The notes under the pieces were generated by a model. That model saw only the letters and a list, made by a program, of their open reading frames with translations, was not told the DNA's origin and made no database searches. The translations under genes were made by a program, and so were the position numbers. A stretch of 64,000 nt of DNA from a virus (Duplodnaviria; Caudoviricetes): the IMG/VR virus record IMGVR_UViG_2931369376_000001, positions 16,994-80,993 of that record; one strand, 5' to 3'. Positions 2,047 through 11,276 of the stretch are shown here, piece by piece. Positions within the stretch are counted from its first letter, which is position 1; every line of letters starts with the position of its first letter.

Positions 2047-2955
2047 TTAGTGACCCCTGATCACGGAATCGACAACCGACAGCGCCTTTTTCACGCCGCT
2101 GGCCACGGCGGCGATCGCGCCCTTGTCCTCTTTTTCGGGTTCAGCCTGGTAGCCCGGCAGTTCGGGGGTCAACATGAACCGGTTGGCGCTGTCGAGCATA
2201 TCGGCGCCGATGTTCATATTGATCCCGCGCTCCATCACCGCCGGCGCGCTGTCGAGCATAGGCGCCTCGATTTTGGCCTGGCGCAGACGCTCCAGTAGCC
2301 GCGCGTTGTGTTCCACCAGCTCATCGTTGATCTTGCACTGCGCCAGGTAGTCGGTGCTGATCGATGCGGCAAAGGCGTCCGATTCCTTGATCATCGAATC
2401 CACAGAGTCCAGCAATGCAGCGTTTTCCGACGCGAACGTGTCTACCGACGCAAAAACGCCTGGTGCCACGCTGTCGAGCATCACCGCATAGCCGCGGTTG
2501 TCGTCATAGTTGGGAGCGCGCACCAGGTCCATGCCGAAGTACCCCTTGGGCACGCGCACACCGCCTTCCTCTGGCGCGTAGATGGCCGAACTGAAGCCAT
2601 AGGCCTTGCTACCCCACAGGCGTTCGCCGACGCGGCCCGGGGCGGTATCCAGAAACTCTTGCTCGTGTTCTACGTCACCGTTGGGATAGCACTTGAGGTA
2701 GATCGTGCGCACCGCCGGCTCCAGCACCACCGGCTTGCCGTCAACAATCACCGTTTCAGGCACATCGAGTGTGTATTTCTCCCGGTACTGGTGACCGATA
2801 TAACCCACCACGTCGCCTTTCTGGATCGCTTCCTGGGTGGCAGCACCGTTGAACAGGCGCATGGCGGCGTCGATATCGATCTTGCGCGGCTGGCCGGTGA
2901 AGCTGCGCCCGATGTTGTTCAAGTTGTAGCGAATAACGCCCGTGCGCTTACCCAT
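2047..2955 (-). CDS. pro: Prohead protease (P1 Pro-like)
   Basis: GYIGH..VPET..DGKPVV.EPAVRT..NGDVEHEQEFLDT.PG..GFSSA resembles P1 Pro. Lies directly downstream of the portal gene, as in P1. Confidence 0.75.
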   Translation of the reverse strand: MGKRTGVIRYNLNNIGRSFTGQPRKIDIDAAMRLFNGAATQEAIQKGDVVGYIGHQYREKYTLDVPETVIVDGKPVVLEPAVRTIYLKCYPNGDVEHEQEFLDTAPGRVGERLWGSKAYGFSSAIYAPEEGGVRVPKGYFGMDLVRAPNYDDNRGYAVMLDSVAPGVFASVDTFASENAALLDSVDSMIKESDAFAASISTDYLAQCKINDELVEHNARLLERLRQAKIEAPMLDSAPAVMERGINMNIGADMLDSANRFMLTPELPGYQAEPEKEDKGAIAAVASGVKKALSVVDSVIRGH

Positions 2956-4570
2956 TCTTTCCGTCCTCTTCTTCGTTGTCGGCGCCAGCCACTGGGGGCA
3001 GATCGATGTCGTTGTCTCCGCCGCCGAAGCCTGGTTGCGCCGGTGGCTTGGCGTTGGCCAGGCCCTTGGCGAACATGTCAGCCGCCTCCTGGTCGAGTTC
3101 TGCTGTCTTGGCCAGCATGTAGGCGTTGGTTTTTTCGTCCATGCCGATATCGCGCATCTGCGCCAGGATCTGGACCAGGATCGCGGCCTTGTTCATGGCC
3201 TTCTCGGAGCTGGCTTGCTTTTCAGCCTCCAGCGCCGCGATACCGCCGTAGAAATTGATCGTGTAGGGGCGTTCGGAGTCCGGCCAGCACTTGCCGTACT
3301 TGGCCATCATGTGGCGGTCTATGGTGTCGTTGCAGGTCTTGGTGTAGCTGGTGCGCAGCATCCTGGCGCGCTCGGCGCCTTGGCTGCTAGTGCGGTTGAA
3401 TCCGCCGTCACCCAGGCCACCCGACAGCTGATCGGCAAAGCCCAGCATGGAAATGTCGGTACCGAGGGTGCCCGCCAGCTTCTTGGCATGGAACAGCACA
3501 TCCTCGACGCCCAGGTTCTGGCCGTTGGCGCCTGATGCGATGGCGCTCACCTGGGTCAGCTGCTTTTCGTTCCAGACCGGCATGATGTTGAAGTTGCGCG
3601 ACGTCGAGTAAACGCCCTCTTCCACCTGCTTGTGCGCCCGGGCCTTCATTTCCGTGAGCATCTTGGTGGTGTTTTCGAGAATCTTGGCGCGTTGCTCCTT
3701 GGTAGTGTCCGCCATGTTCATCGTCAGCAGCACTTCCTCGATGGAGCTGGCGATACGCTGCCCGACCAAACCGCGCAAGGCGGAATACAGGTTGTCGAAG
3801 TCCTGCTCTGCCGCTTCCAGCAGGGAGCCGCCCACCAGCGCCGGGAGCGGCATGATGTTGCGCAGGTCAGTGGCTTCGAGATTGATCTTCTGTGCGTTCT
3901 CGATGGCCTTCATCTGCGGCAGCATCAGCATGCGCGGCATCTTCAGGCGCACCATGTCCATATGGCTGACGCGGCTCTGTAGCTTCTCGCCCAGGCTCAC
4001 GACATAGCCAACAGTCCGGCCCAGTTCCTCGTATGGCTGCACCAGGGGCGAAAAGAGTGATTCATGGTCGAACGCCACCAGGCCTTCGCCCTTGACGGTG
4101 TACAGCCGCGCATAGGCATCGCCAAACCCGCCGGCGTTAAAGCCCATGGAGTGCGCACTGTCGTTGAGCATTTTGATGACCGGCGCCAGCTCGTCGACCA
4201 TCTTCTGGTCACCGCGGGAGATTCTTGGCTTTGCCTCCAGGAACACGGTTTCTCCTGTGGTTTCATGCCCGCCCAGCGCCATCTGGATGTTGTTGCGCAA
4301 GGCCGTGGAAATAAGGCCTTCCTGCATCATGAAGTGGTACTTCATGTAGATTTGCGAGCGGGTGCGCACTGGCTTGCCGGAGTTGCCCAGCAGCATTTCA
4401 ATGCCGACATAATCCGAATCGAACGTGTCCACCTGAGCCAAGCGGCTCATAGCCTGCTGATTGGCCTGGCTGGCGCTCATATCGGATAGTTGGCCGCCCA
4501 GGATTAGATCCCGCGCACCGCCGACCAGACGCGCCACCAGGCCTTTTGGGGATTCAGTTGAATTGGCCAT
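2948..4570 (-). CDS. prt: Portal protein (P1 Prt-like)
   Basis: 540 aa, coupled to pro, with RxxIYxxYxxM and GGLGDGGFxRTS motifs and an acidic C-terminal tail. Confidence 0.72.
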   Translation of the reverse strand: MANSTESPKGLVARLVGGARDLILGGQLSDMSASQANQQAMSRLAQVDTFDSDYVGIEMLLGNSGKPVRTRSQIYMKYHFMMQEGLISTALRNNIQMALGGHETTGETVFLEAKPRISRGDQKMVDELAPVIKMLNDSAHSMGFNAGGFGDAYARLYTVKGEGLVAFDHESLFSPLVQPYEELGRTVGYVVSLGEKLQSRVSHMDMVRLKMPRMLMLPQMKAIENAQKINLEATDLRNIMPLPALVGGSLLEAAEQDFDNLYSALRGLVGQRIASSIEEVLLTMNMADTTKEQRAKILENTTKMLTEMKARAHKQVEEGVYSTSRNFNIMPVWNEKQLTQVSAIASGANGQNLGVEDVLFHAKKLAGTLGTDISMLGFADQLSGGLGDGGFNRTSSQGAERARMLRTSYTKTCNDTIDRHMMAKYGKCWPDSERPYTINFYGGIAALEAEKQASSEKAMNKAAILVQILAQMRDIGMDEKTNAYMLAKTAELDQEAADMFAKGLANAKPPAQPGFGGGDNDIDLPPVAGADNEEEDGKNG

Positions 4571-4675: not shown

Positions 4676-5314
4676 TTAACTCACGGCGAGCCGATCAGCC
4701 GGGTACTGGCGCAGGAAATCGAAGCTTTCATGCGCTGGCGCCGTCAACCAGTCCCGATACAGGCCTTTGGGCAATATCACCACCATGCGCTTCTCGTCGT
4801 CGGGCTTGTGGTAGTTGCGCATAAATTCGTGGTCATCGGCGTTGACGGTCAACATGGTGTAGCTGTGCAACACCTGGCTCGACGCTGGATCGCGCCAGCG
4901 CTCCCACAGGCCTGCAATACCCATCGGCTCACCGTCTGCCCGGACGATGCGCGTAGCGATGGCCTTACCCGTTCGCCAATCCGGCTCATAGATTGCCGCC
5001 GCCGGGATAATGCAGTGCTGGGCCCGACGCCAGGCGTTTCTGTAGGAAGGCTTCTCGGCTACGGTTTCGGAGCGGGCGTTATACGTGCGCCGGGCAAGCT
5101 TGGTGTCTTTGCTCCAGGTCGGAATCAGGCCAAAGGAACCCGGCATTACCTCTGCCGCCTGCGTGGCGCCCTCCCCGTCCTGTTCGGGATCGATTGCGCG
5201 AATGAATGGACCCAGGTACCCAGGCCACAGGTCTGTCTTGGTCTGCTCTGGCAGTGCCAGGCCGAACGCCATCCTCAGTTGCGCCGCTGTAGGCGCTTCG
5301 TAGTGGCTGCACAT
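4676..5314 (-). CDS. SRAP/HMCES family abasic-site protein
   Basis: N-terminal MCSHY (catalytic Cys2), TYNARSETV.EKPSYR.AW, FYEP-like IYEP, MGIAGLWE, H.PDDEKRMVVIL. Confidence 0.9.
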   Translation of the reverse strand: MCSHYEAPTAAQLRMAFGLALPEQTKTDLWPGYLGPFIRAIDPEQDGEGATQAAEVMPGSFGLIPTWSKDTKLARRTYNARSETVAEKPSYRNAWRRAQHCIIPAAAIYEPDWRTGKAIATRIVRADGEPMGIAGLWERWRDPASSQVLHSYTMLTVNADDHEFMRNYHKPDDEKRMVVILPKGLYRDWLTAPAHESFDFLRQYPADRLAVS

Positions 5315-5356
5315 AGTTCCCCCCTCTCGCTTACGCCCAGCCACGCCCACCAGGTG

Positions 5357-5866
5357 CTATTCGTCCAGATCCTCACTGGCCGCCTCATCTGGCCGCGGGT
5401 TGAGCAGGTACTTGCGAGTATACGGCGGGATATTCACGTTGCCGGTAACGTCGACGATCTCAAAATTGATAATTACCCCTTCACCCATGAGCACAGCCAC
5501 CAGCATGCGCTTACCTGGTTGAACGTAGCCGCTGGTACCGGGCTCGGCCAGGGGCTCAATTGAGGCCTCAAGAACACCTTCAGCGTAGTCCAGGCGGCTG
5601 CTGTCATCGGAGGTGTTGCCCAGCGGTGCGGCGTAGCCTTGTGAGAAGTGGATCATCGCTTCGCCAGTCTCAACCCACTCATAGGCTGCCTCATCCTCAT
5701 CGCTCATCACGCCAAGCGGGCCGATGGTTGGGTAGCCGTCCGCCGTCTGGTCATCGCTGGTGCGGGTCACTTTCTTGTCAAAGAGCACGCATGGGATGGC
5801 GTTGGGCTCGCGCAAGGTGCGCTGGCGATTCGCCCGGTTTATCTGGATGGCCACGTTGTTGAGCAT
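5357..5866 (-). CDS. Putative virion morphogenesis (head-tail) protein
   Basis: 169 aa in an operon with other structural genes, downstream of a late-promoter motif. Confidence 0.45.
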   Translation of the reverse strand: MLNNVAIQINRANRQRTLREPNAIPCVLFDKKVTRTSDDQTADGYPTIGPLGVMSDEDEAAYEWVETGEAMIHFSQGYAAPLGNTSDDSSRLDYAEGVLEASIEPLAEPGTSGYVQPGKRMLVAVLMGEGVIINFEIVDVTGNVNIPPYTRKYLLNPRPDEAASEDLDE

Positions 5867-5869
5867 GTC

Positions 5870-6979
5870 TTACCCCTTTACCTTTTCCACTGCGCTGAGC
5901 GCTGCGGCGATCTGTTTCGCGCTGAAGCCTTGAGCCTGCATGGCTGCCATGAGCGCCTGGTGCTGGACGCTGGAGGCCTTCCTGTTCACCTGTGAGGCTT
6001 TACTGGCGCGCAGCCGGTCATTGGCCGCCTTCACCCTTCGCGCCTCCTGCTGGCGCTGGTACGACGGCTGTGCCTGGCGCTGTGCCTTCTGCTCTTCAGC
6101 CGTTTTGATGACCGTCCCGCGCTTGGCCTTTTGGCGATCGCGCAGCGCCTGCTCAATGAATGCCTGCTGTTCGGCCACAGTGACGGGGGTTTGCTTATTG
6201 CTCAGGGTGCGCCGACCGGTTTCGATCATGCGCTTGGCGAACAGGTTGAATGTCGCCCCGGCGTTGATGGTGGCCATCACGCGAATGACGTGCTTGCAGG
6301 CAATCCCCATGAGTTTGGGGTTTCGGATGCGTGGGAAGCCGTCCTCAGGGCGTCCATAGTTGAAACTTCCGATGCTGGCGATATAGCGGTACCAATACGT
6401 GTGTCGCCCACAGTCACAATCGAATTTCAGCTTGCCCGCCAGCATTCGCCGCGCGGCCTCCAGGGCAGTGTTGCCATCCGCCAGCACCTTGTCGTAGTCC
6501 AGGAACTGCACCATGACGTGGTGGCGCGCTACGTCCGACTTCGCGCTGGCATTGGTCTGGATGTGCACGACACCGCCGCGGTTGCTGACGGGGATAACGG
6601 TATGGATTTCACGGCTGGCGCGCCCACGGTCATCCGGTGATGACAGGTTGATCACCTGCTTGGCCAGGATCCCGCCGCCGGCACCGGAGACGGGCACGTT
6701 GCCCTTGCGCTGACCATGCCGACGCTGAATGTCGTGGACCGCGGCCCGGAACGCTATCAAATCGTCGCGCGTCAGCGGCCTGAACTCACCGCCGAGAGTC
6801 GTGAACAGCCCCCGCTTGGGGTCGTACAGGCCGGCCATATCGTCGGCGGACAGAATGGCGTTCTGGTCCCCGATCCGCTGCGCGCGGTCAGCCTCGAAAC
6901 GTCTGCGGGCCTCCGCGCTCAGCTTGTTCGCAGCGACCACCAGCGTGTCGCGGGGGCGGGCTCCCTTCTTGGCAGCCAT
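5870..6979 (-). CDS. SWIM-type zinc-finger morphogenesis protein (P1-like)
   Basis: CDCGRHTYWYRY...NPKLMGIACKHV gives a CxC...CxH motif. Confidence 0.55.
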   Translation of the reverse strand: MAAKKGARPRDTLVVAANKLSAEARRRFEADRAQRIGDQNAILSADDMAGLYDPKRGLFTTLGGEFRPLTRDDLIAFRAAVHDIQRRHGQRKGNVPVSGAGGGILAKQVINLSSPDDRGRASREIHTVIPVSNRGGVVHIQTNASAKSDVARHHVMVQFLDYDKVLADGNTALEAARRMLAGKLKFDCDCGRHTYWYRYIASIGSFNYGRPEDGFPRIRNPKLMGIACKHVIRVMATINAGATFNLFAKRMIETGRRTLSNKQTPVTVAEQQAFIEQALRDRQKAKRGTVIKTAEEQKAQRQAQPSYQRQQEARRVKAANDRLRASKASQVNRKASSVQHQALMAAMQAQGFSAKQIAAALSAVEKVKG

Positions 6980-7275
6980 CAGCGGACCGACCTGGTAGCC
7001 GTGACGATGCCGGCTTTTTGCTTGAGATAAGCCAGGTGTTCTTTGGTGGGCAGCACCACGTCTTGCTCCACCAGCTCGCTGTCTACCGTCGACAATCCAG
7101 CAGCGGCCATAACCACCAGCGTTTCAGTAGCATCACCGTAGACGCGCAGCGCCATCATCGGCAGGTGATAGCGCTCACTCGGGAAGCTGCGCACTACCTG
7201 GCGGCGGGACGAATAGGACGGCTCGGTCAGTGCGAACTTGCGCACCTCCAGATAAAACCGGGCTTCGGGGATCAT
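6979..7275 (-). CDS. Small baseplate wedge protein (LysM/tail-X/gp53-like)
   Basis: ERY..P.MALRVYGD....VVMAAAGL....ELVEQ.VVLPT pattern. Confidence 0.5.
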   Translation of the reverse strand: MIPEARFYLEVRKFALTEPSYSSRRQVVRSFPSERYHLPMMALRVYGDATETLVVMAAAGLSTVDSELVEQDVVLPTKEHLAYLKQKAGIVTATRSVR

Positions 7276-7369
7276 TGGGCGGCCTCTGTGAACACCCGGG
7301 AATTATCCGGGCATCACCAGCGGCGCCGGCGAGGCACTTTGCGCGACTCGAGGACTTTGAGACAGGCCG

Positions 7370-7400
7370 AAAAAAACCGCCCCAGCCGAAGCCAGGGCGG
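7370..7400 (-). terminator. Intrinsic terminator after the small peptide ORF
   Basis: CCGCCC/GGGCGG stem followed by U7 on the minus strand. Confidence 0.75.
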
Positions 7401-7416
7401 CCCCACCTATCAGACC

Positions 7417-7515
7417 TTACAGGCCATCAAAGTAGTCTCGCAGCAGTTCGTATGTGTGATGAACACGCACACAAACCACCACGAAGTCCCACGCACGTCT
7501 TAACAACTTAGACAT
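7417..7515 (-). CDS. 32-aa peptide, candidate type I toxin (MSKLLRRAWDFVVVCVRVHHTYELLRDYFDGL)
   Basis: AGGAGG SD 7 nt before the ATG, partly sequestered in an ACGGCCC/GGGCCGT hairpin. Has its own terminator. Confidence 0.65.
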   Translation of the reverse strand: MSKLLRRAWDFVVVCVRVHHTYELLRDYFDGL

Positions 7516-7911
7516 ACACGGCCCTCCTGTTGCTGGGCCGTCCTCCAGCACGCTTACCGGAACACGCGTGCCTTCGGGACACTTCACCAAGCGTTCCCTG
7601 TGAGGCGGCTGGGCTGATGGCCTCCCAAAACATCCTCCGGCACGGGTTCCTAATCCGTGAAGGGAGGGCCAAAATTCGCGCGCAGGCCCGGCCAACTCAA
7701 AGGTGACGCACGCGGAACGGCCCCATCTTACCCCATAAATCTTCAGGTAATGCGCGGCGCCGTGGCTCATTTTGCTAGACTGCCCGCAAGGCTTCTTGGT
7801 GTTTTATAAAACGTTATTTCCGGGCACCTATACCCGCCCAAGCCGATCACGGGAAAACGCCCCCTAAACGATGACAGGCGATTAACGGGAGTGAAGCAGC
7901 GTTATTCCCCA

Positions 7912-7940
7912 TTGCGTCATTGATCAAATGTGAATAACAT
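7912..7940 (+). promoter_or_regulatory. Sigma70 promoter for the sRNA
   Basis: TTGCGT-17 nt-TAACAT. Confidence 0.6.
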
Positions 7941-7946
7941 TATCTC

Positions 7947-8033
7947 CACACCAAGCGTTCCCTGTGAGCGAGCAAGCCCAACCCCTAATTGGATTTGCAA
8001 AGAAAGACCGCCTCTCCTAAGGCGGTTTTTTTT
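7947..8033 (+). ncRNA. Candidate trans-acting antitoxin sRNA (~87 nt)
   Basis: Lies between the promoter and an ACCGCCT/AGGCGGT+U7 terminator. Positions 7949-7968 are identical to 7585-7604, so they are complementary to the peptide mRNA leader. Confidence 0.65.
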
Positions 8034-8353
8034 CGCCTGCATTTTCCCCGGCCAGACAAAACAAACCCCGCACAAGGCGGGGCAATGTCCAACAGACGCG
8101 CTACTCCTGGTCCTGCCACTTCCTGTGCGGCCAGGTCTTATCGGTATATGCCATGGCGGCTTCCCTGCTGCTGAAGCGCCTGCGCATCACCTTGTCAGGG
8201 TGCCCTTTGTCCTTGGGATCGCCCGTGATGTAGGGCGCCCAGGCCAACCAATAGTCAGCTTCAGGCTCATCATTCCAGCCATGGGCTGCGAAGCCCCTGC
8301 GCCGTCAACTCGCGTCCAGCTGCTTGGCCGGAACTCACTCCACAGCGACACCT

Positions 8354-9154
8354 CTAGCCCGCCATCAGGGTGGCGCCATCGGCACCTTTCAGTCGCTCAC
8401 TCTCTTCGTCCAGGCATAGCAAGCACAGGGCCTCAAGCTCACGTTCTATCCGGTCGCCGGGCTTTGTCAGCGCGATGAGGCCCCGTCTATCCACATGAGG
8501 GGCCATACGTGCCATTTGGCTCGCCAGCGTTTCAATGGGCGGGCACTTGATCGCCTTCATGATGGCGCCCTGCTTGTAGCGGTCGAACGTCAACGCGTAG
8601 CCGTCCAGGTACTGGGCGCGTAATGGTTCGCTTTCGGGGCGGCACTGAAGGTTAACGGAGTCCCAGGTAAAGCTGAGCGACGGCATGCGATTCAGCAAGC
8701 GCGGGAGGTCGCAGCACCACGAAAGCCCGTGAATCAAGACACGAGGTGACTCAAGCGCGGAGGCATAGACCGCCAGCTTTTGCACATAGGCTTCCTGCTT
8801 GTCGTAGTCCACGCTCCCGTTAACTGTTCGATCGCTCAGCAACACCGCCCGCCGGCGCCCGCCAGTGCTTCGAGCTGGGGCCACGATGAAGTGGAAGGCG
8901 TAGAACCGGTATCCGTCGCACAGCACGGTAATGAGGTGTTCGAACGCTTCCCCAGGCTTGATTGGACCGTCCGCCAGCGCGGCCTCTACCAATCCGGGCA
9001 CGTCGCTTGGCTTCAGCGAAGGGCCCGCCGGGCGGTATTTCTTTCTGTAGCTGTCATATGGCGTGGCCGCTGGAACCTTGGAGTAAGGAACCTTGCTGAG
9101 TTGCCCCGTGCGCGCACGGAATGCCAGGTTATCGTCGTGCCGGCTGCGCTTCAT
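8354..9154 (-). CDS. Hypothetical protein (266 aa)
   Basis: ATGA-coupled to the LytTR gene; no family recognised. Confidence 0.6.
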   Translation of the reverse strand: MKRSRHDDNLAFRARTGQLSKVPYSKVPAATPYDSYRKKYRPAGPSLKPSDVPGLVEAALADGPIKPGEAFEHLITVLCDGYRFYAFHFIVAPARSTGGRRRAVLLSDRTVNGSVDYDKQEAYVQKLAVYASALESPRVLIHGLSWCCDLPRLLNRMPSLSFTWDSVNLQCRPESEPLRAQYLDGYALTFDRYKQGAIMKAIKCPPIETLASQMARMAPHVDRRGLIALTKPGDRIERELEALCLLCLDEESERLKGADGATLMAG

Positions 9155-9543
9155 GCTGCCACCTGCTGCGCGTTGTCTTGCGCTGCGTGGAAATCGGCGT
9201 GGCGGGTGTAGGTCACTTTTTTGCACTTGCGGGAAACTGGGAACTCCCGCCCACCGACCCGGCAGAAATAATCCCGTGTGACGGCTCTCGGCTTGGTTCG
9301 CCGTTCATTGCGAGCGCTCAGGCTCTCGATTGCGCCCACACGCACCAAGCTGGCGCGGTGTATCCGGACCAGGCCCTGGTCGCCGGCCTCGATCATCTTG
9401 AGCGCGTGATCGCCGGTAAGCATCCACTCCACACCGTCGACGTCCAGCGCCGACACGTATTTATCGTCAGCCCAAAAGGCGACGAACACCGAGGAATCCA
9501 CCTTTTCGGGCCGACGGTGCCAGTTCTTCCTGAAGCGGCGCAC
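9151..9543 (-). CDS. Stand-alone LytTR DNA-binding domain protein
   Basis: LVRIHRASLVRVGAIESL and FPVSR motifs. Confidence 0.65.
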   Translation of the reverse strand: MRRFRKNWHRRPEKVDSSVFVAFWADDKYVSALDVDGVEWMLTGDHALKMIEAGDQGLVRIHRASLVRVGAIESLSARNERRTKPRAVTRDYFCRVGGREFPVSRKCKKVTYTRHADFHAAQDNAQQVAA

Positions 9544-9674: not shown

Positions 9675-11225
9675 TTATGCGACGTCGGCGAACATGTCGG
9701 CGGCTTTACTCAGGGTTGCTTCGGCGCGCGAGGTCTGCGCCACCTCTGTCTCTTCGTTGCACGCGACATAGTTCACGTCCTCGAGGAAGGCCATGCATAG
9801 CGTGTCAAAAAGGTCCGGGGACGACAGGCCGTCAGCGGCCATGCTCTCTTTGCTGGCGATCTTGTACCGGCCCAGCTCGTCGAAGGCGTAGGGCAGGCGT
9901 GAGCCCTGGTCTATGAGGTCGCGCTTATATTTGGTCGACAGCTTGACCACGCCGTCCTTGATCGCCTCGGTAGCGTGCACGGTGCACTGCGCCCGCTGGT
10001 TGATGAAGCGCTTACGGTTCTCGTTGGAGTGCGGGCGGGCGCCCCATTGGACACCCTGGATGATCATGCTGCCCTCTTGCAGCTCCTGAAGCCGGCGCAG
10101 GAACTGCATGCCCATGGCACTGACGTCGATAACGATGGTGACGTTCGGGAAACGCATTGCGTAGTCACGCAGCTTGACCGCCAGCGGCGTCCAGTCCTCG
10201 GATGCGCTGTAGATTGGGATGTCGACAACCTCAACCCGTCGGCGCCGCTCGTTCGCCATGCGATCGCCCTTGCCGCTGACGCGCAGATGGGTGGCCACCG
10301 TCTTGTCTCGCCCAACGCCCGCGGCGACGTCGACAACGATGAGGTGCCCCCACTCTTCTCCCGGAAGGATTGGACTGGCCAGGCCCATGGCCCGCTCGAT
10401 CATGACCGAACTCAACAGGTACTTGCTGAGGTTGGTCGGGAACATCCCCCGCACTTTGATCTGATATTCCGGCTCGTCGACGCCGCCGTACTGGAGCCGC
10501 TTCTCCTTGATGAACTTGATGCCCACAATCGGGCTTTCTTCGGAGTTGAACACCAGCGGCACCCACGAGCCGCCGCGGTGGATCGACTGGCCGTGGTGGG
10601 TTTCCCAGAAGAACCCGGTCGAGCGCGTGGGCTGGCTGGCCATGATGAAGCGGTTGCGCTCATCAGTCATCGCGCCGCCAATCACGCCAAAGTTTTCGTC
10701 AGGGATCCCCGACGCTTCGTCCGCCAGCCAAAGCAGGTAGTCGGCGTGGGTACCGGCCAGGTTCTCAGGCGAGCCGCGCGGTGCGGTGCGGGTGGTGACG
10801 TACCAGGTGGCGCTGTGCCCGGCCACGTAGACTTTCTCGGCCTGAATCACAACGTAGTCAGCGATCCAGGCATGCGGGCCTTTGCGAATCTCGGCCAGCA
10901 TGGTGGTGATTTCTTTCCACACACCCTCTCGCACCGTCTTGAGTTTCGGCGCGGTCACGTAGGTGTTGGAGTTGAAGTAGCACAGCAGGTGCCAAAGGCA
11001 GATGACGCCGAAGCTCCGGGTTTTACCAGTACCGTGGCCAGACGATACCGATACCCGGCAGCCATAGGCTGAGGACTCATCAAAAAGCTCTTGCTGTTGC
11101 GGTGTGACATCCATCAAACACGCTTCAACCGCAAAGCCGTACAGGTTGAAGGCGTAACGCTCAATGAATTCGGGCCACCTCGGGTCTGCCTCTAATCGCA
11201 GACTCTTGGGTTTCGGCTTGGCCAT
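9675..11225 (-). CDS. pacB: Terminase large subunit (PacB-like)
   Basis: Walker A SGHGTGKT, Walker B LWLADEAS, nuclease motifs VVDVAAG, VIDV and SPDLFD. Confidence 0.9.
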   Translation of the reverse strand: MAKPKPKSLRLEADPRWPEFIERYAFNLYGFAVEACLMDVTPQQQELFDESSAYGCRVSVSSGHGTGKTRSFGVICLWHLLCYFNSNTYVTAPKLKTVREGVWKEITTMLAEIRKGPHAWIADYVVIQAEKVYVAGHSATWYVTTRTAPRGSPENLAGTHADYLLWLADEASGIPDENFGVIGGAMTDERNRFIMASQPTRSTGFFWETHHGQSIHRGGSWVPLVFNSEESPIVGIKFIKEKRLQYGGVDEPEYQIKVRGMFPTNLSKYLLSSVMIERAMGLASPILPGEEWGHLIVVDVAAGVGRDKTVATHLRVSGKGDRMANERRRRVEVVDIPIYSASEDWTPLAVKLRDYAMRFPNVTIVIDVSAMGMQFLRRLQELQEGSMIIQGVQWGARPHSNENRKRFINQRAQCTVHATEAIKDGVVKLSTKYKRDLIDQGSRLPYAFDELGRYKIASKESMAADGLSSPDLFDTLCMAFLEDVNYVACNEETEVAQTSRAEATLSKAADMFADVA

Positions 11226-11276
11226 AGGATCCTTAAACACAAAGGGGCCAGTTCCCCGGCCCCTATCACTCTACGG

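What the first reader, a model, noticed from the sequence alone, without database searches (positions are those of the whole stretch)
7370..8033. Unannotated type I toxin-antitoxin candidate with tisB/istR-like divergent layout
A plus-strand sRNA (promoter TTGCGT-17-TAACAT at 7912-7940, terminator to 8033) starts with CACCAAGCGTTCCCTGTGAG (7949-7968). This is an exact copy of 7585-7604, so it is perfectly complementary to the minus-strand mRNA 70-90 nt upstream of a 32-aa ORF (7417-7515). That ORF has a hairpin-occluded AGGAGG SD and its own terminator. Divergent sRNA, ~20-nt upstream pairing and a structured leader are the established layout of tisB/istR-1, dinQ/agrB and shoB/ohsC. Inference: an addiction or abortive-infection module for the plasmid state. 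The peptide is amphipathic rather than a classic TM helix.
Basis: partly seen in the sequence, partly recalled or inferred. Interest (0 to 1): 0.8.

Follow-up and report, generated by a model that had tools for sequence, protein, structure and literature searches.

The report
Small-RNA-controlled 32-residue peptide cassette
A 700-base cassette inserted in this Pseudomonas phage-plasmid encodes a tightly locked 32-residue peptide gene and a divergent small RNA that pairs with its leader. It belongs to an apparently undescribed, Pseudomonas-wide family that looks like an RNA-controlled (type I) toxin-antitoxin system, but the peptide is not a membrane peptide.

Summary
The 20-mer occurs exactly twice (7585-7604, 7949-7968), with none expected by chance. 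One copy lies in the leader of a 32-codon minus-strand gene, 89-70 nt before its AUG. The other forms the 5' end of an ~86-nt plus-strand sRNA (7948-8033).

I found 47 distinct related modules in Pseudomonas phages, prophages and chromosomes. In 41, the two sites form an uninterrupted 14-25-nt duplex, and four more form strong interrupted duplexes. The sequences fall into 18 non-cross-pairing classes, one of them unrelated in sequence, and 39 of 41 sRNAs pair best with their own leader. Most differences between the two copies are G.U-compatible. Both RNAs have covariation-supported structures, and the SD and AUG sit in hairpins. The peptide is under purifying selection and is predicted to be a single helix with no transmembrane segment.

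In the window the cassette is a ~700-bp insertion absent from seven syntenic relatives. The peptide family is detected in 70 of 401 Pseudomonas species genomes, and 21 copies share one chromosomal locus. Rfam, Pfam and the papers I searched do not cover it.

RNA-RNA control is very well supported. Toxicity and addiction remain inferences. An earlier report in this scan (e1-3420400) found the same kind of cassette on another Pseudomonas phage-plasmid.

The parts
7350..8047 (.). Whole cassette: a ~700-bp insertion bounded by two outward-facing terminators. The boundaries are approximate.
   Evidence: Seven syntenic P1-like relatives (L055-L061) keep terL, the 130-aa and 290-aa genes, and the 98-aa and 369-aa genes, but give no blastn or peptide-motif hit for the cassette. 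In L061 the flanks lie 72 bp apart. The conserved block in homologues runs from terminator to terminator.
7370..7400 (-). Intrinsic terminator of the peptide mRNA: 10-bp stem, UUCG loop, U7.
   Evidence: Helix 13 of the mRNA alignment has 4 compensatory pairs.
7417..7515 (-). 32-codon ORF (stop codon included) encoding the conserved peptide.
   Evidence: There are 16+ variants, with W9, L25, R26 and D27 invariant. Pairwise codon differences are 481 synonymous against 315 non-synonymous. AF2 predicts a single helix over residues 2-31 with pLDDT 88.
7432..7492 (-). Long hairpin formed by the coding region.
   Evidence: RNAalifold helices 9-11 are 95-99% paired.
7493..7517 (-). Hairpin that sequesters the AUG.
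   Evidence: Helix 8 has 7 pairs, is 100% paired and includes 1 compensatory pair. P(unpaired) of the AUG is about 0 in 6 of the 7 loci folded (0.14 free and 0.08 bound in L005).
7518..7541 (-). SD hairpin. The SD, AGGAGGG, is at 7522-7528, half in the loop and half in the stem.
   Evidence: Helix 7 has 2 compensatory pairs.
7585..7604 (-). sRNA target site in the 5' UTR, at -89 to -70 from the AUG. It lies partly in the closing stem and one arm of a three-way junction (about 7542-7610).
7641..7659 (-). Conserved 5' hairpin of the leader (CACGG...CCGUG).
   Evidence: Helix 1. The L010 remnant breaks inside this hairpin.
7725..7730 (-). Candidate -10 box of the peptide mRNA (TAAGAT on the - strand). 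The transcription start is not determined.
   Evidence: A positionally conserved TAACAT/TACCAT/TAGAAT/TATCAT is found in homologues, but without a consensus -35. This is an inference.
7912..7940 (+). sRNA promoter, TTGCGT-17-TAACAT.
   Evidence: Read directly from the sequence. TTGC-17-TAnnnT is conserved 6-8 nt before the seed in homologues.
7948..8033 (+). The ~86-nt sRNA. It has a single-stranded 5' seed (7949-7968), a stem-loop (7972-7998), an A-rich linker, and a terminator (stem 8008-8012/8021-8025, U8 to 8033).
   Evidence: Across 37 sequences, 96.7% of cells are paired, 8 pairs have compensatory changes, and 0 of 500 shuffles reach the observed values. The cognate duplex energy is -47 kcal/mol.

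Best explanation
This is a self-contained type I toxin-antitoxin-like cassette.

**The peptide mRNA.** A minus-strand mRNA runs from an undetermined start, probably near 7718, to the terminator at 7370. It has a long, highly structured 5' UTR. Both the Shine-Dalgarno sequence and the AUG of its 32-codon ORF are held in hairpins, so translation is intrinsically poor.

**The sRNA.** A divergently transcribed ~86-nt RNA (7948-8033) uses its single-stranded 5' end of 20-22 nt to pair with the leader 89-70 nt upstream of the AUG.

**Proposed mechanism.** By analogy with tisB/istR-1 and zorO/orzO, I infer that this duplex blocks ribosome loading at an upstream standby region, triggers RNase III cleavage, or both, and so keeps the peptide off. 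I also infer that the helical, non-membrane peptide inhibits growth when made. This would happen when the sRNA decays after loss of the phage-plasmid or after transcription shut-off by an infecting phage. The cassette would then stabilise its carrier or abort infection.

**Shown:** the two RNAs, their structures, their specific and co-evolving pairing, the coding status of the ORF, and the cassette's portability.

**Inferred:** the direction of regulation (repression), toxicity, and the biological role.
For: **Repeat significance.** The exact 20-mer occurs twice, with 0 expected by chance.

**Co-evolving pairing.**
- Of 47 distinct modules, 41 have a 14-25-nt uninterrupted duplex (G.U allowed) between the leader at -91 to -78 and an upstream opposite-strand segment followed by a terminator. 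The wrong-strand control gives 9-14 nt.
- Four more have interrupted duplexes of -35 to -48 kcal/mol.
- The cognate run has a median of 21 nt against 8 nt for non-cognate pairs. For 39 of 41 sRNAs the cognate leader is the best partner. There are 18 non-cross-pairing classes.
- L014 has an unrelated sequence, GTAGACGTTTTCAGCGA, at the same two positions.
- Differences between the two copies are G.U-compatible in L009, L025 (2) and L026 (3). There is one A.C mismatch in L007 and another in L032 module 1.
- The peptide barely changes between seed classes, so no protein encoded in the cassette could track the repeat.

**RNA structures.** The sRNA structure is 96.7% paired with 8 compensatory pairs, and 0 of 500 shuffles reach this. 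The mRNA structure is 96.2% paired with 17 compensatory pairs, against 36-46% in slid controls. The AUG is always paired, and the SD is half sequestered.

**Coding status.** Synonymous codon differences outnumber non-synonymous ones, 481 to 315. In L014 the peptide is conserved while the leader sequence is entirely different.

**Behaviour typical of TA modules.**
- The cassette is an insertion absent from 7 syntenic relatives.
- In other phages it sits next to a ParA partition gene, and in another locus next to mazEF.
- Some genomes carry several copies, including tandem copies.
- Co-resident copies belong to different seed classes.
- The one copy without an sRNA (L010) has also lost its promoter region and 5' hairpin.

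**Layout.** It matches the divergent type I systems reviewed in PMC4147584.
Against: - The peptide is not hydrophobic. No known type I toxin of this size is soluble.
- No family, structure or atlas match hints at an activity.
- Modelled sRNA binding does not change SD or AUG accessibility, so the direction of control is not evident from folding.
- No consensus promoter is seen for the mRNA.
- tblastn found no copy in the 72,556 PLSDB plasmids or the 50,697 GenBank phages.
- 21 copies lie at a housekeeping chromosomal locus. This does not fit a purely plasmid-addiction role.
- No expression or toxicity data exist.
Confidence: 0.6

Rival explanations
1. This is an sRNA-repressed but non-toxic small protein. 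On this reading the cassette is a moron whose helical 32-residue peptide binds and modulates a host or phage protein, for example as a regulator, anti-defence factor or exclusion factor. The sRNA merely sets a tight expression threshold, and there is no killing and no addiction.
For: - The peptide is soluble-looking. It is predicted to be a single helix with a heptad-like hydrophobic seam (F11, C15, V18, Y22, L25, F29, L32), which suits protein-protein binding.
- It has an invariant W9 and LRD motif.
- The main chromosomal branch lies between chemoreceptor and glyoxalase genes.
- Toxicity is untested.
Against: - The 18 orthogonal seed classes on a nearly constant peptide, the tandem and multi-copy loci, the triple lock on translation, and the loss of the promoter together with the sRNA in L010 are what selfish TA modules show. 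They are harder to explain for an ordinary regulator.
- The same cassette sits in unrelated phage backbones and in chromosomes, so it cannot depend on a partner specific to one phage.
Confidence: 0.25
2. The sRNA activates translation rather than repressing it. Pairing unzips the three-way junction whose closing stem joins the CCUC of the target to an upstream GGAGG. The leader then refolds so that the ribosome can reach the true start.
For: The target includes CCUC paired to GGAGG at alignment columns 70-74/134-138. Anti-antisense activation is a known sRNA mechanism (general knowledge).
Against: - With the target constrained as bound, the unpaired probability of the AUG stays near 0 and that of the SD stays at about 0.5-0.8, in all 7 loci tested.
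- The freed GGAGG has no start codon at a usable distance.
- In the four divergent systems with this layout, the sRNA is described as the repressing antitoxin (PMC4147584).
Confidence: 0.08
3. The two 20-mers act at the DNA level. They would be operators for one DNA-binding protein, a duplication scar or recombination sites, and the 'sRNA' would not be a functional antisense RNA.
For: Direct repeats 364 bp apart flank a divergent promoter region. L014 carries six TTGCGC(A/G) repeats in that spacer.
Against: - The repeat sequence changes completely between classes, while the only protein in the cassette stays nearly constant.
- In the five loci where I examined the differences between the two copies, six are G.U-compatible in the RNA sense and two are A.C mismatches.
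- One copy always begins 6-8 nt after a conserved promoter. It is followed by a covarying stem-loop and a terminator.
- The minus-strand promoter-like site at 7968-7939 is not conserved.
Confidence: 0.02

Closest known systems
tisB/istR-1 of E. coli (type I TA with standby-site control)
   Same: - The genes are divergent and do not overlap.
- The 5' end of the sRNA has about 21 nt of complementarity to the toxin 5' UTR, roughly 100 nt upstream of a structurally sequestered RBS.
- The mRNA is monocistronic, encodes about 30 codons, and has its own terminator (PMC4147584).
   Different: - There is no sequence similarity of the peptide or the sRNA.
- There is no LexA box: only 2 of 45 modules have even a weak match.
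- The peptide is not a hydrophobic membrane helix.
- The host genus is Pseudomonas.
zorO-orzO / zorP-orzP and shoB-ohsC, dinQ-agrB (E. coli divergent type I TAs)
   Same: - The architecture is the same.
- Tandem duplicated loci with discriminating sRNA seeds occur, as with zorO/zorP; compare L032 and G073.
- The antitoxin does not overlap the translation start.
   Different: - There is no homology. The ohsC Rfam model scores 20 bits against a gathering score of 50, and only over the terminator.
- Those toxins are hydrophobic.
- This family spans 18 or more seed classes and occurs on both chromosomes and phages.
hok/sok-type plasmid and phage addiction modules
   Same: - A small peptide gene carries a heavily structured, translationally inert mRNA.
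- A short, constitutively transcribed antisense RNA acts on it.
- It is carried by mobile elements, with post-segregational killing or phage exclusion as the proposed role.
   Different: - In hok/sok the antisense RNA overlaps its target in cis, and control works through the mok leader ORF and 3' processing.
- Here the sRNA gene lies 364 bp away and acts in trans on the 5' UTR.
- There is no upstream coupling ORF.
- The peptide is not a membrane toxin.
P1 c4 / P4 CI immunity antisense RNAs (Rfam C4, RF01695)
   Same: This is a phage-plasmid-borne small RNA that controls a downstream small gene by pairing with short sequence blocks in its leader.
   Different: - The window region gives no C4 hit, although a true C4 RNA scores 88 bits elsewhere, in L026.
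- C4 is processed from the same transcript that it controls, whereas this sRNA is divergently transcribed with its own promoter.

Membership tests
Type I toxin-antitoxin systems (general) | An RNA antitoxin that base-pairs with the toxin mRNA | tested here: met
   The window has 20 nt of exact complementarity. Seed and target co-vary in 41 of 47 modules across 18 classes, and mismatches are mostly G.U-compatible.
Type I toxin-antitoxin systems (general) | A small protein (<60 aa) that is toxic when expressed | not testable with these tools
   The size criterion is met (31-35 aa). Toxicity needs an expression experiment.
Type I toxin-antitoxin systems (general) | A hydrophobic, membrane-active toxin (typical but not universal; SymE and RalR are exceptions) | tested here: not met
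   GRAVY is 0.07-0.13 and the best 19-residue Kyte-Doolittle window is 0.6-0.9. There are 9-10 charged residues plus 2-4 His.
Type I toxin-antitoxin systems (general) | A toxin mRNA kept translationally inert by its own structure | tested here: met
   The SD and AUG hairpins carry compensatory changes. P(unpaired) of the AUG is about 0. This evidence is in silico only.
Type I toxin-antitoxin systems (general) | A labile antitoxin RNA and a stable toxin mRNA | not testable with these tools
   This needs rifampicin-chase half-life measurements.
tisB/istR-1-like divergent subgroup (tisB, shoB, zorO, dinQ) | A divergent, non-overlapping sRNA gene that targets the long 5' UTR well upstream of the RBS | tested here: met
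   The target lies at -91 to -78 in the 41 modules with an uninterrupted duplex. The sRNA gene lies 350-430 bp upstream on the other strand. The layout is as described in PMC4147584.
tisB/istR-1-like divergent subgroup (tisB, shoB, zorO, dinQ) | Sequence homology of the toxin or the sRNA to those families | tested here: not met
   Pfam and NCBIfam give no hit for the peptide itself. No Rfam family reaches its gathering score; ohsC scores 20 against 50 bits, over the terminator only.
tisB/istR-1-like divergent subgroup (tisB, shoB, zorO, dinQ) | SOS (LexA-box) control of the toxin promoter (tisB, dinQ) | tested here: not met
   CTGT-N8-ACAG with up to 1 mismatch is found in only 2 of 45 modules, and not at a conserved place.
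tisB/istR-1-like divergent subgroup (tisB, shoB, zorO, dinQ) | Competition at a ribosome standby site and/or RNase III cleavage of the duplex | not testable with these tools
   This needs toeprinting, structure probing and an rnc mutant.
P1 c4 / P4 CI immunity RNA (Rfam RF01695) | A match to the C4 covariance model | tested here: not met
   There is no C4 hit in window 6500-9500 at E<=10. A genuine C4 in L026 scores 88 bits.

The most novel reading that the evidence does not exclude
This would be a previously undescribed, genus-wide Pseudomonas family of type I toxin-antitoxin modules. Its toxin would be a soluble 32-residue helical peptide acting on an intracellular target rather than on the membrane. 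Its sRNA and leader recognition sequences have diversified into at least 18 mutually orthogonal 'address codes', on phage-plasmids, prophages and one syntenic chromosomal locus.
Probability: 0.45. Interest if true: 0.75.

Novelty: new variant of a known kind. Interest (0 to 1): 0.62.

Why it matters
- **Gap in Pseudomonas.** RNA-controlled (type I) toxin-antitoxin systems are almost unknown in this genus. A survey of 339 P. syringae genomes found TA systems to be 'almost exclusively type II', with a single hok/sok prediction (PMC8790059). This family is detected in about one in six of 401 Pseudomonas species genomes and has escaped annotation because the gene is tiny and the sRNA is in no database.
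- **A new kind of toxin.** If the peptide is toxic, it would be a rare non-membrane type I toxin of about 30 residues, pointing to a new intracellular target.
- **A natural experiment.** Whatever the peptide does, the 18 naturally orthogonal seed-target pairs on a constant scaffold amount to a ready-made compensatory-mutation experiment. They could also serve as a parts list for orthogonal riboregulators in Pseudomonas.
- **Relevance to this phage-plasmid.** The cassette is a candidate maintenance or exclusion module, acquired as a discrete insertion.

Tried and rejected
1. **Rfam.** Scans of the region at E<=10 and of six homologous loci at gathering thresholds gave only sub-threshold terminator matches (Thr_leader, ohsC, RNAI). 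I rejected these.
2. **DNA similarity to GenBank phages.** No match.
3. **tblastn of the peptide.** No match in PLSDB plasmids or GenBank phages.
4. **L004.** This is a single 20-mer hit inside an apparently unrelated, coding-looking region with no module around it. I treated it as a chance match.
5. **Minus-strand promoter-like site at 7968-7939.** The consensus scan flagged it, but it is not conserved in homologues and arises from the complement of the sRNA -10 region. I rejected it.
6. **Alternative frame.** A 28-aa ORF at 7410-7496 lies in another frame. I rejected it because substitutions follow the 32-aa frame.
7. **Peptide family and similarity searches.** Pfam, NCBIfam and the ESM atlas gave nothing for the peptide itself. 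The APO_RNA-bind hit on P0041 is below its cut-off and falls partly in a miscalled N-terminal extension. phmmer against 1.8 billion representatives returned only 5 family members.
9. **LexA-box hypothesis.** Rejected.
10. **Metal-binding idea (C15, H19, H20).** Weakened because L026 and other variants lack these residues.
11. **mRNA promoter.** I could not identify a consensus promoter. There is only a conserved -10-like box, so the 5' end is not determined.
12. **The search for related loci with the 290-aa neighbour.** It found no relatives. The 369-aa neighbour did.

Full report
**1. Where the window comes from**

The window is bases 16994-80993 of an 81-kb IMG/VR virus record rated 95% complete. 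The finding lies in a ~1-kb gene-poor gap inside the packaging and structural region. A PacB-like large terminase is at 9675-11240 (-), a portal at 2948-4570 (-), and small structural genes at 5357-7275 (-). Earlier notes of this scan call the element a P1-like phage-plasmid of Pseudomonas fluorescens. My own searches fit that: every cellular homologue of the module is in Pseudomonas.

**2.

The 20-mer CACCAAGCGTTCCCTGTGAG occurs at 7585-7604 and 7949-7968 and nowhere else in the window, even with 3 mismatches. None of 100 shuffles gave a match.

The sRNA promoter is weak by consensus and the scan did not flag it. It is conserved in position in the homologues.

**3. The module is a conserved unit**

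Exact and degenerate pattern scans of viral and genome collections found related modules. So did look-ups of peptide relatives and an HMM search of 401 Pseudomonas species genomes. Together they gave 47 distinct modules.

Conservation falls into two blocks separated by a variable promoter spacer:
- Block 1 runs terminator, ORF, then ~160 nt of leader.
- Block 2 is the ~86-nt sRNA with its terminator.

**4. The pairing co-evolves**

This is the decisive result.
- In 41 of the 47 modules, the leader at -91 to -78 forms an uninterrupted 14-25-nt duplex (G.U allowed) with an upstream opposite-strand segment that is followed by a terminator. The wrong strand gives only 9-14 nt.
- Four further modules have single-mismatch duplexes of -35 to -48 kcal/mol.
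- The seeds fall into 18 classes that do not cross-pair. The cognate run has a median of 21 nt against 8 nt for non-cognate pairs. For 39 of 41 sRNAs the best leader is their own.
- Duplex energies show the same pattern: cognate -35 to -51 kcal/mol, cross-class -17 to -38.
- The most diverged MGE-borne member, L014, has a completely different leader. It still carries GTAGACGTTTTCAGCGA both at -86 and at the 5' end of a promoter-seed-stem-loop-terminator unit.
- Where the two DNA copies differ, six differences give G.U pairs in the RNA duplex: L009 (1), L025 (2) and L026 (3). Two, in L007 and L032, give an A.C mismatch.
- The peptide is nearly constant across seed classes, so a cassette-encoded DNA-binding protein cannot explain the co-variation.

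**5. Both RNAs are structured**

*The sRNA.* Across 37 sRNAs the consensus is a single-stranded 5' seed, one stem-loop, an A-rich linker and a terminator. 96.7% of cells are paired, 8 pairs have compensatory changes, no shuffle out of 500 reaches the observed values, and slid controls give 34-61%.

*The mRNA.* Across 10 sequences there are 88 pairs, 96.2% paired, with 17 compensatory pairs. Slid controls give 36-46%. The elements are:
- a 5' hairpin;
- a three-way junction whose closing stem and one arm contain the target;
- an SD hairpin;
- an AUG hairpin;
- a long hairpin within the coding region;
- the terminator.

The AUG is essentially never unpaired in the ensemble. Constraining the target as 'bound' does not change SD or AUG accessibility. 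The sRNA therefore does not act by directly occluding or exposing the start. That is compatible with standby-site competition or duplex-directed cleavage, as in tisB/istR-1 and zorO/orzO (PMC4147584), but it proves neither.

**6. The ORF is a real gene**

- In the conserved core, synonymous codon differences outnumber non-synonymous ones, 481 to 315, across 15 distinct sequences.
- L014 keeps the peptide although its flanking RNA sequence has diverged beyond recognition.
- W9, L25, R26 and D27 are invariant across 16 variants.
- The exact product is in NCBI nr, and relatives are filed as 'hypothetical protein'.
- AF2 with the family alignment predicts one continuous helix, residues 2-31, with pLDDT 88.
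- The peptide has no transmembrane-grade hydrophobic stretch and only a weak hydrophobic moment. My reading of the sequence finds a heptad-like seam at F11, C15, V18, Y22, L25, F29 and L32.
- Pfam, NCBIfam, the ESM atlas and a 1.8-billion-protein phmmer search give no functional lead.

**7. Genomic behaviour**

*In the window.* The cassette is a discrete ~700-bp insertion (about 7350-8047). Seven syntenic relatives keep the flanking genes at 77-86% DNA identity but lack the cassette. In L061 the flanks are 72 bp apart.

*In other phages and islands.* In ~35-41-kb temperate phages it lies directly next to a ParA-type partition gene, near a CI-like repressor. In another locus it sits beside mazEF.

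*Chromosomal branch.* 21 species carry it at one syntenic locus between a chemoreceptor gene and a glyoxalase-family gene, with many different seeds.

*Copy number and decay.* Some genomes carry 2-3 copies, including tandem ones. Co-resident copies use different seeds. The only copy without an sRNA (L010) has also lost the promoter region and part of the 5' hairpin, although its ORF is intact.

These features are what type I TA loci show in enterobacteria. They are circumstantial evidence for toxicity, not proof.

**8. What argues for caution**

- The peptide is unlike known small type I toxins.
- There is no SOS box.
- The mRNA promoter is not recognisable beyond a conserved -10-like box.
- tblastn found no copy in PLSDB plasmids or GenBank phages.
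- The chromosomal branch lies in a housekeeping context.

The 'addiction module for the plasmid state' reading is therefore plausible for this phage-plasmid but cannot be the family's general role.

**9. Comparison and novelty**

[quoted passage not shown] It is not a sequence member of any of them and it is not a C4-type immunity RNA.

Five full-text searches found no description of this family. A P. syringae survey reports TA systems there as almost exclusively type II.

An earlier report of this scan (e1-3420400) describes the same kind of cassette on another Pseudomonas phage-plasmid and reached a similar view from nine relatives. My analysis was done independently of it. It extends the family to 47 modules, 18 seed classes and a chromosomal branch.

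**10. Verdict**

- RNA-RNA control is very likely, above 0.9.
- Repression is likely.
- Toxicity and a TA function are probable but unproven, at about 0.6.

I class it as a new variant (a new family) of a known kind of system.

Noticed in passing
L014:2790-2860: The variable spacer between the two divergent promoters of this module carries six tandem TTGCGC(A/G) boxes with a 10-11-nt period. They look like iterons or operators. I did not notice such an array in the other spacers I read.
   Followed up: no
L026:2682-2768 (-): A bona fide C4 antisense RNA (Rfam RF01695, 88 bits) lies about 1 kb from the second, highly diverged module of P. frederiksbergensis. That copy therefore sits in a P1/P4-type prophage immunity region.
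   Followed up: no
L032:1000-2300 (G183:C42): Two complete modules lie in tandem, 659 bp apart, with identical peptides. The first sRNA pairs with its leader apart from one A.C mismatch. The second sRNA pairs poorly with its own leader (-22 kcal/mol) and resembles another seed class. This may be a decaying or re-targeted copy. G073 has copies 498 bp apart.
   Followed up: partly
L010:1320-2131: This is a truncated remnant. The ORF, SD and target site are intact, but the sequence breaks inside the 5' hairpin, and the promoter region and sRNA are gone. The same genome carries a second, complete module of another seed class (L025).
   Followed up: partly
window 8041-8353: A 48-codon minus-strand ORF (8101-8247) is followed by its own terminator (8083-8065). 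The stretch is 74% identical to L061, so it is probably a real small gene of the phage backbone. The cassette is inserted just after this terminator.
   Followed up: partly
window 7363-7392 and 8010-8039: The two terminators that bound the cassette form a 30-nt imperfect inverted repeat (77% complementary; CAGGC-A7/8-CCGCC at both ends). The sRNA terminator looks bidirectional, which would shield the peptide gene from read-through. No target-site duplication is visible at the insertion junctions.
   Followed up: partly
window 4676-5350 (-): A gene for an SRAP (SOS-response-associated peptidase, PF02586, E=3e-34) sits between the portal gene and the structural genes of the phage.
   Followed up: no
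L039 and 20 other loci (for example L025, L031-L052): The chromosomal branch of the family, with peptide MSKFARRTWNLVVNCLRAYHVWKFLRDSFDDR, occupies one syntenic site between a methyl-accepting chemotaxis protein gene and a Glyoxalase_7 gene in 21 species. Many different seeds occur at this orthologous locus.
   Followed up: partly
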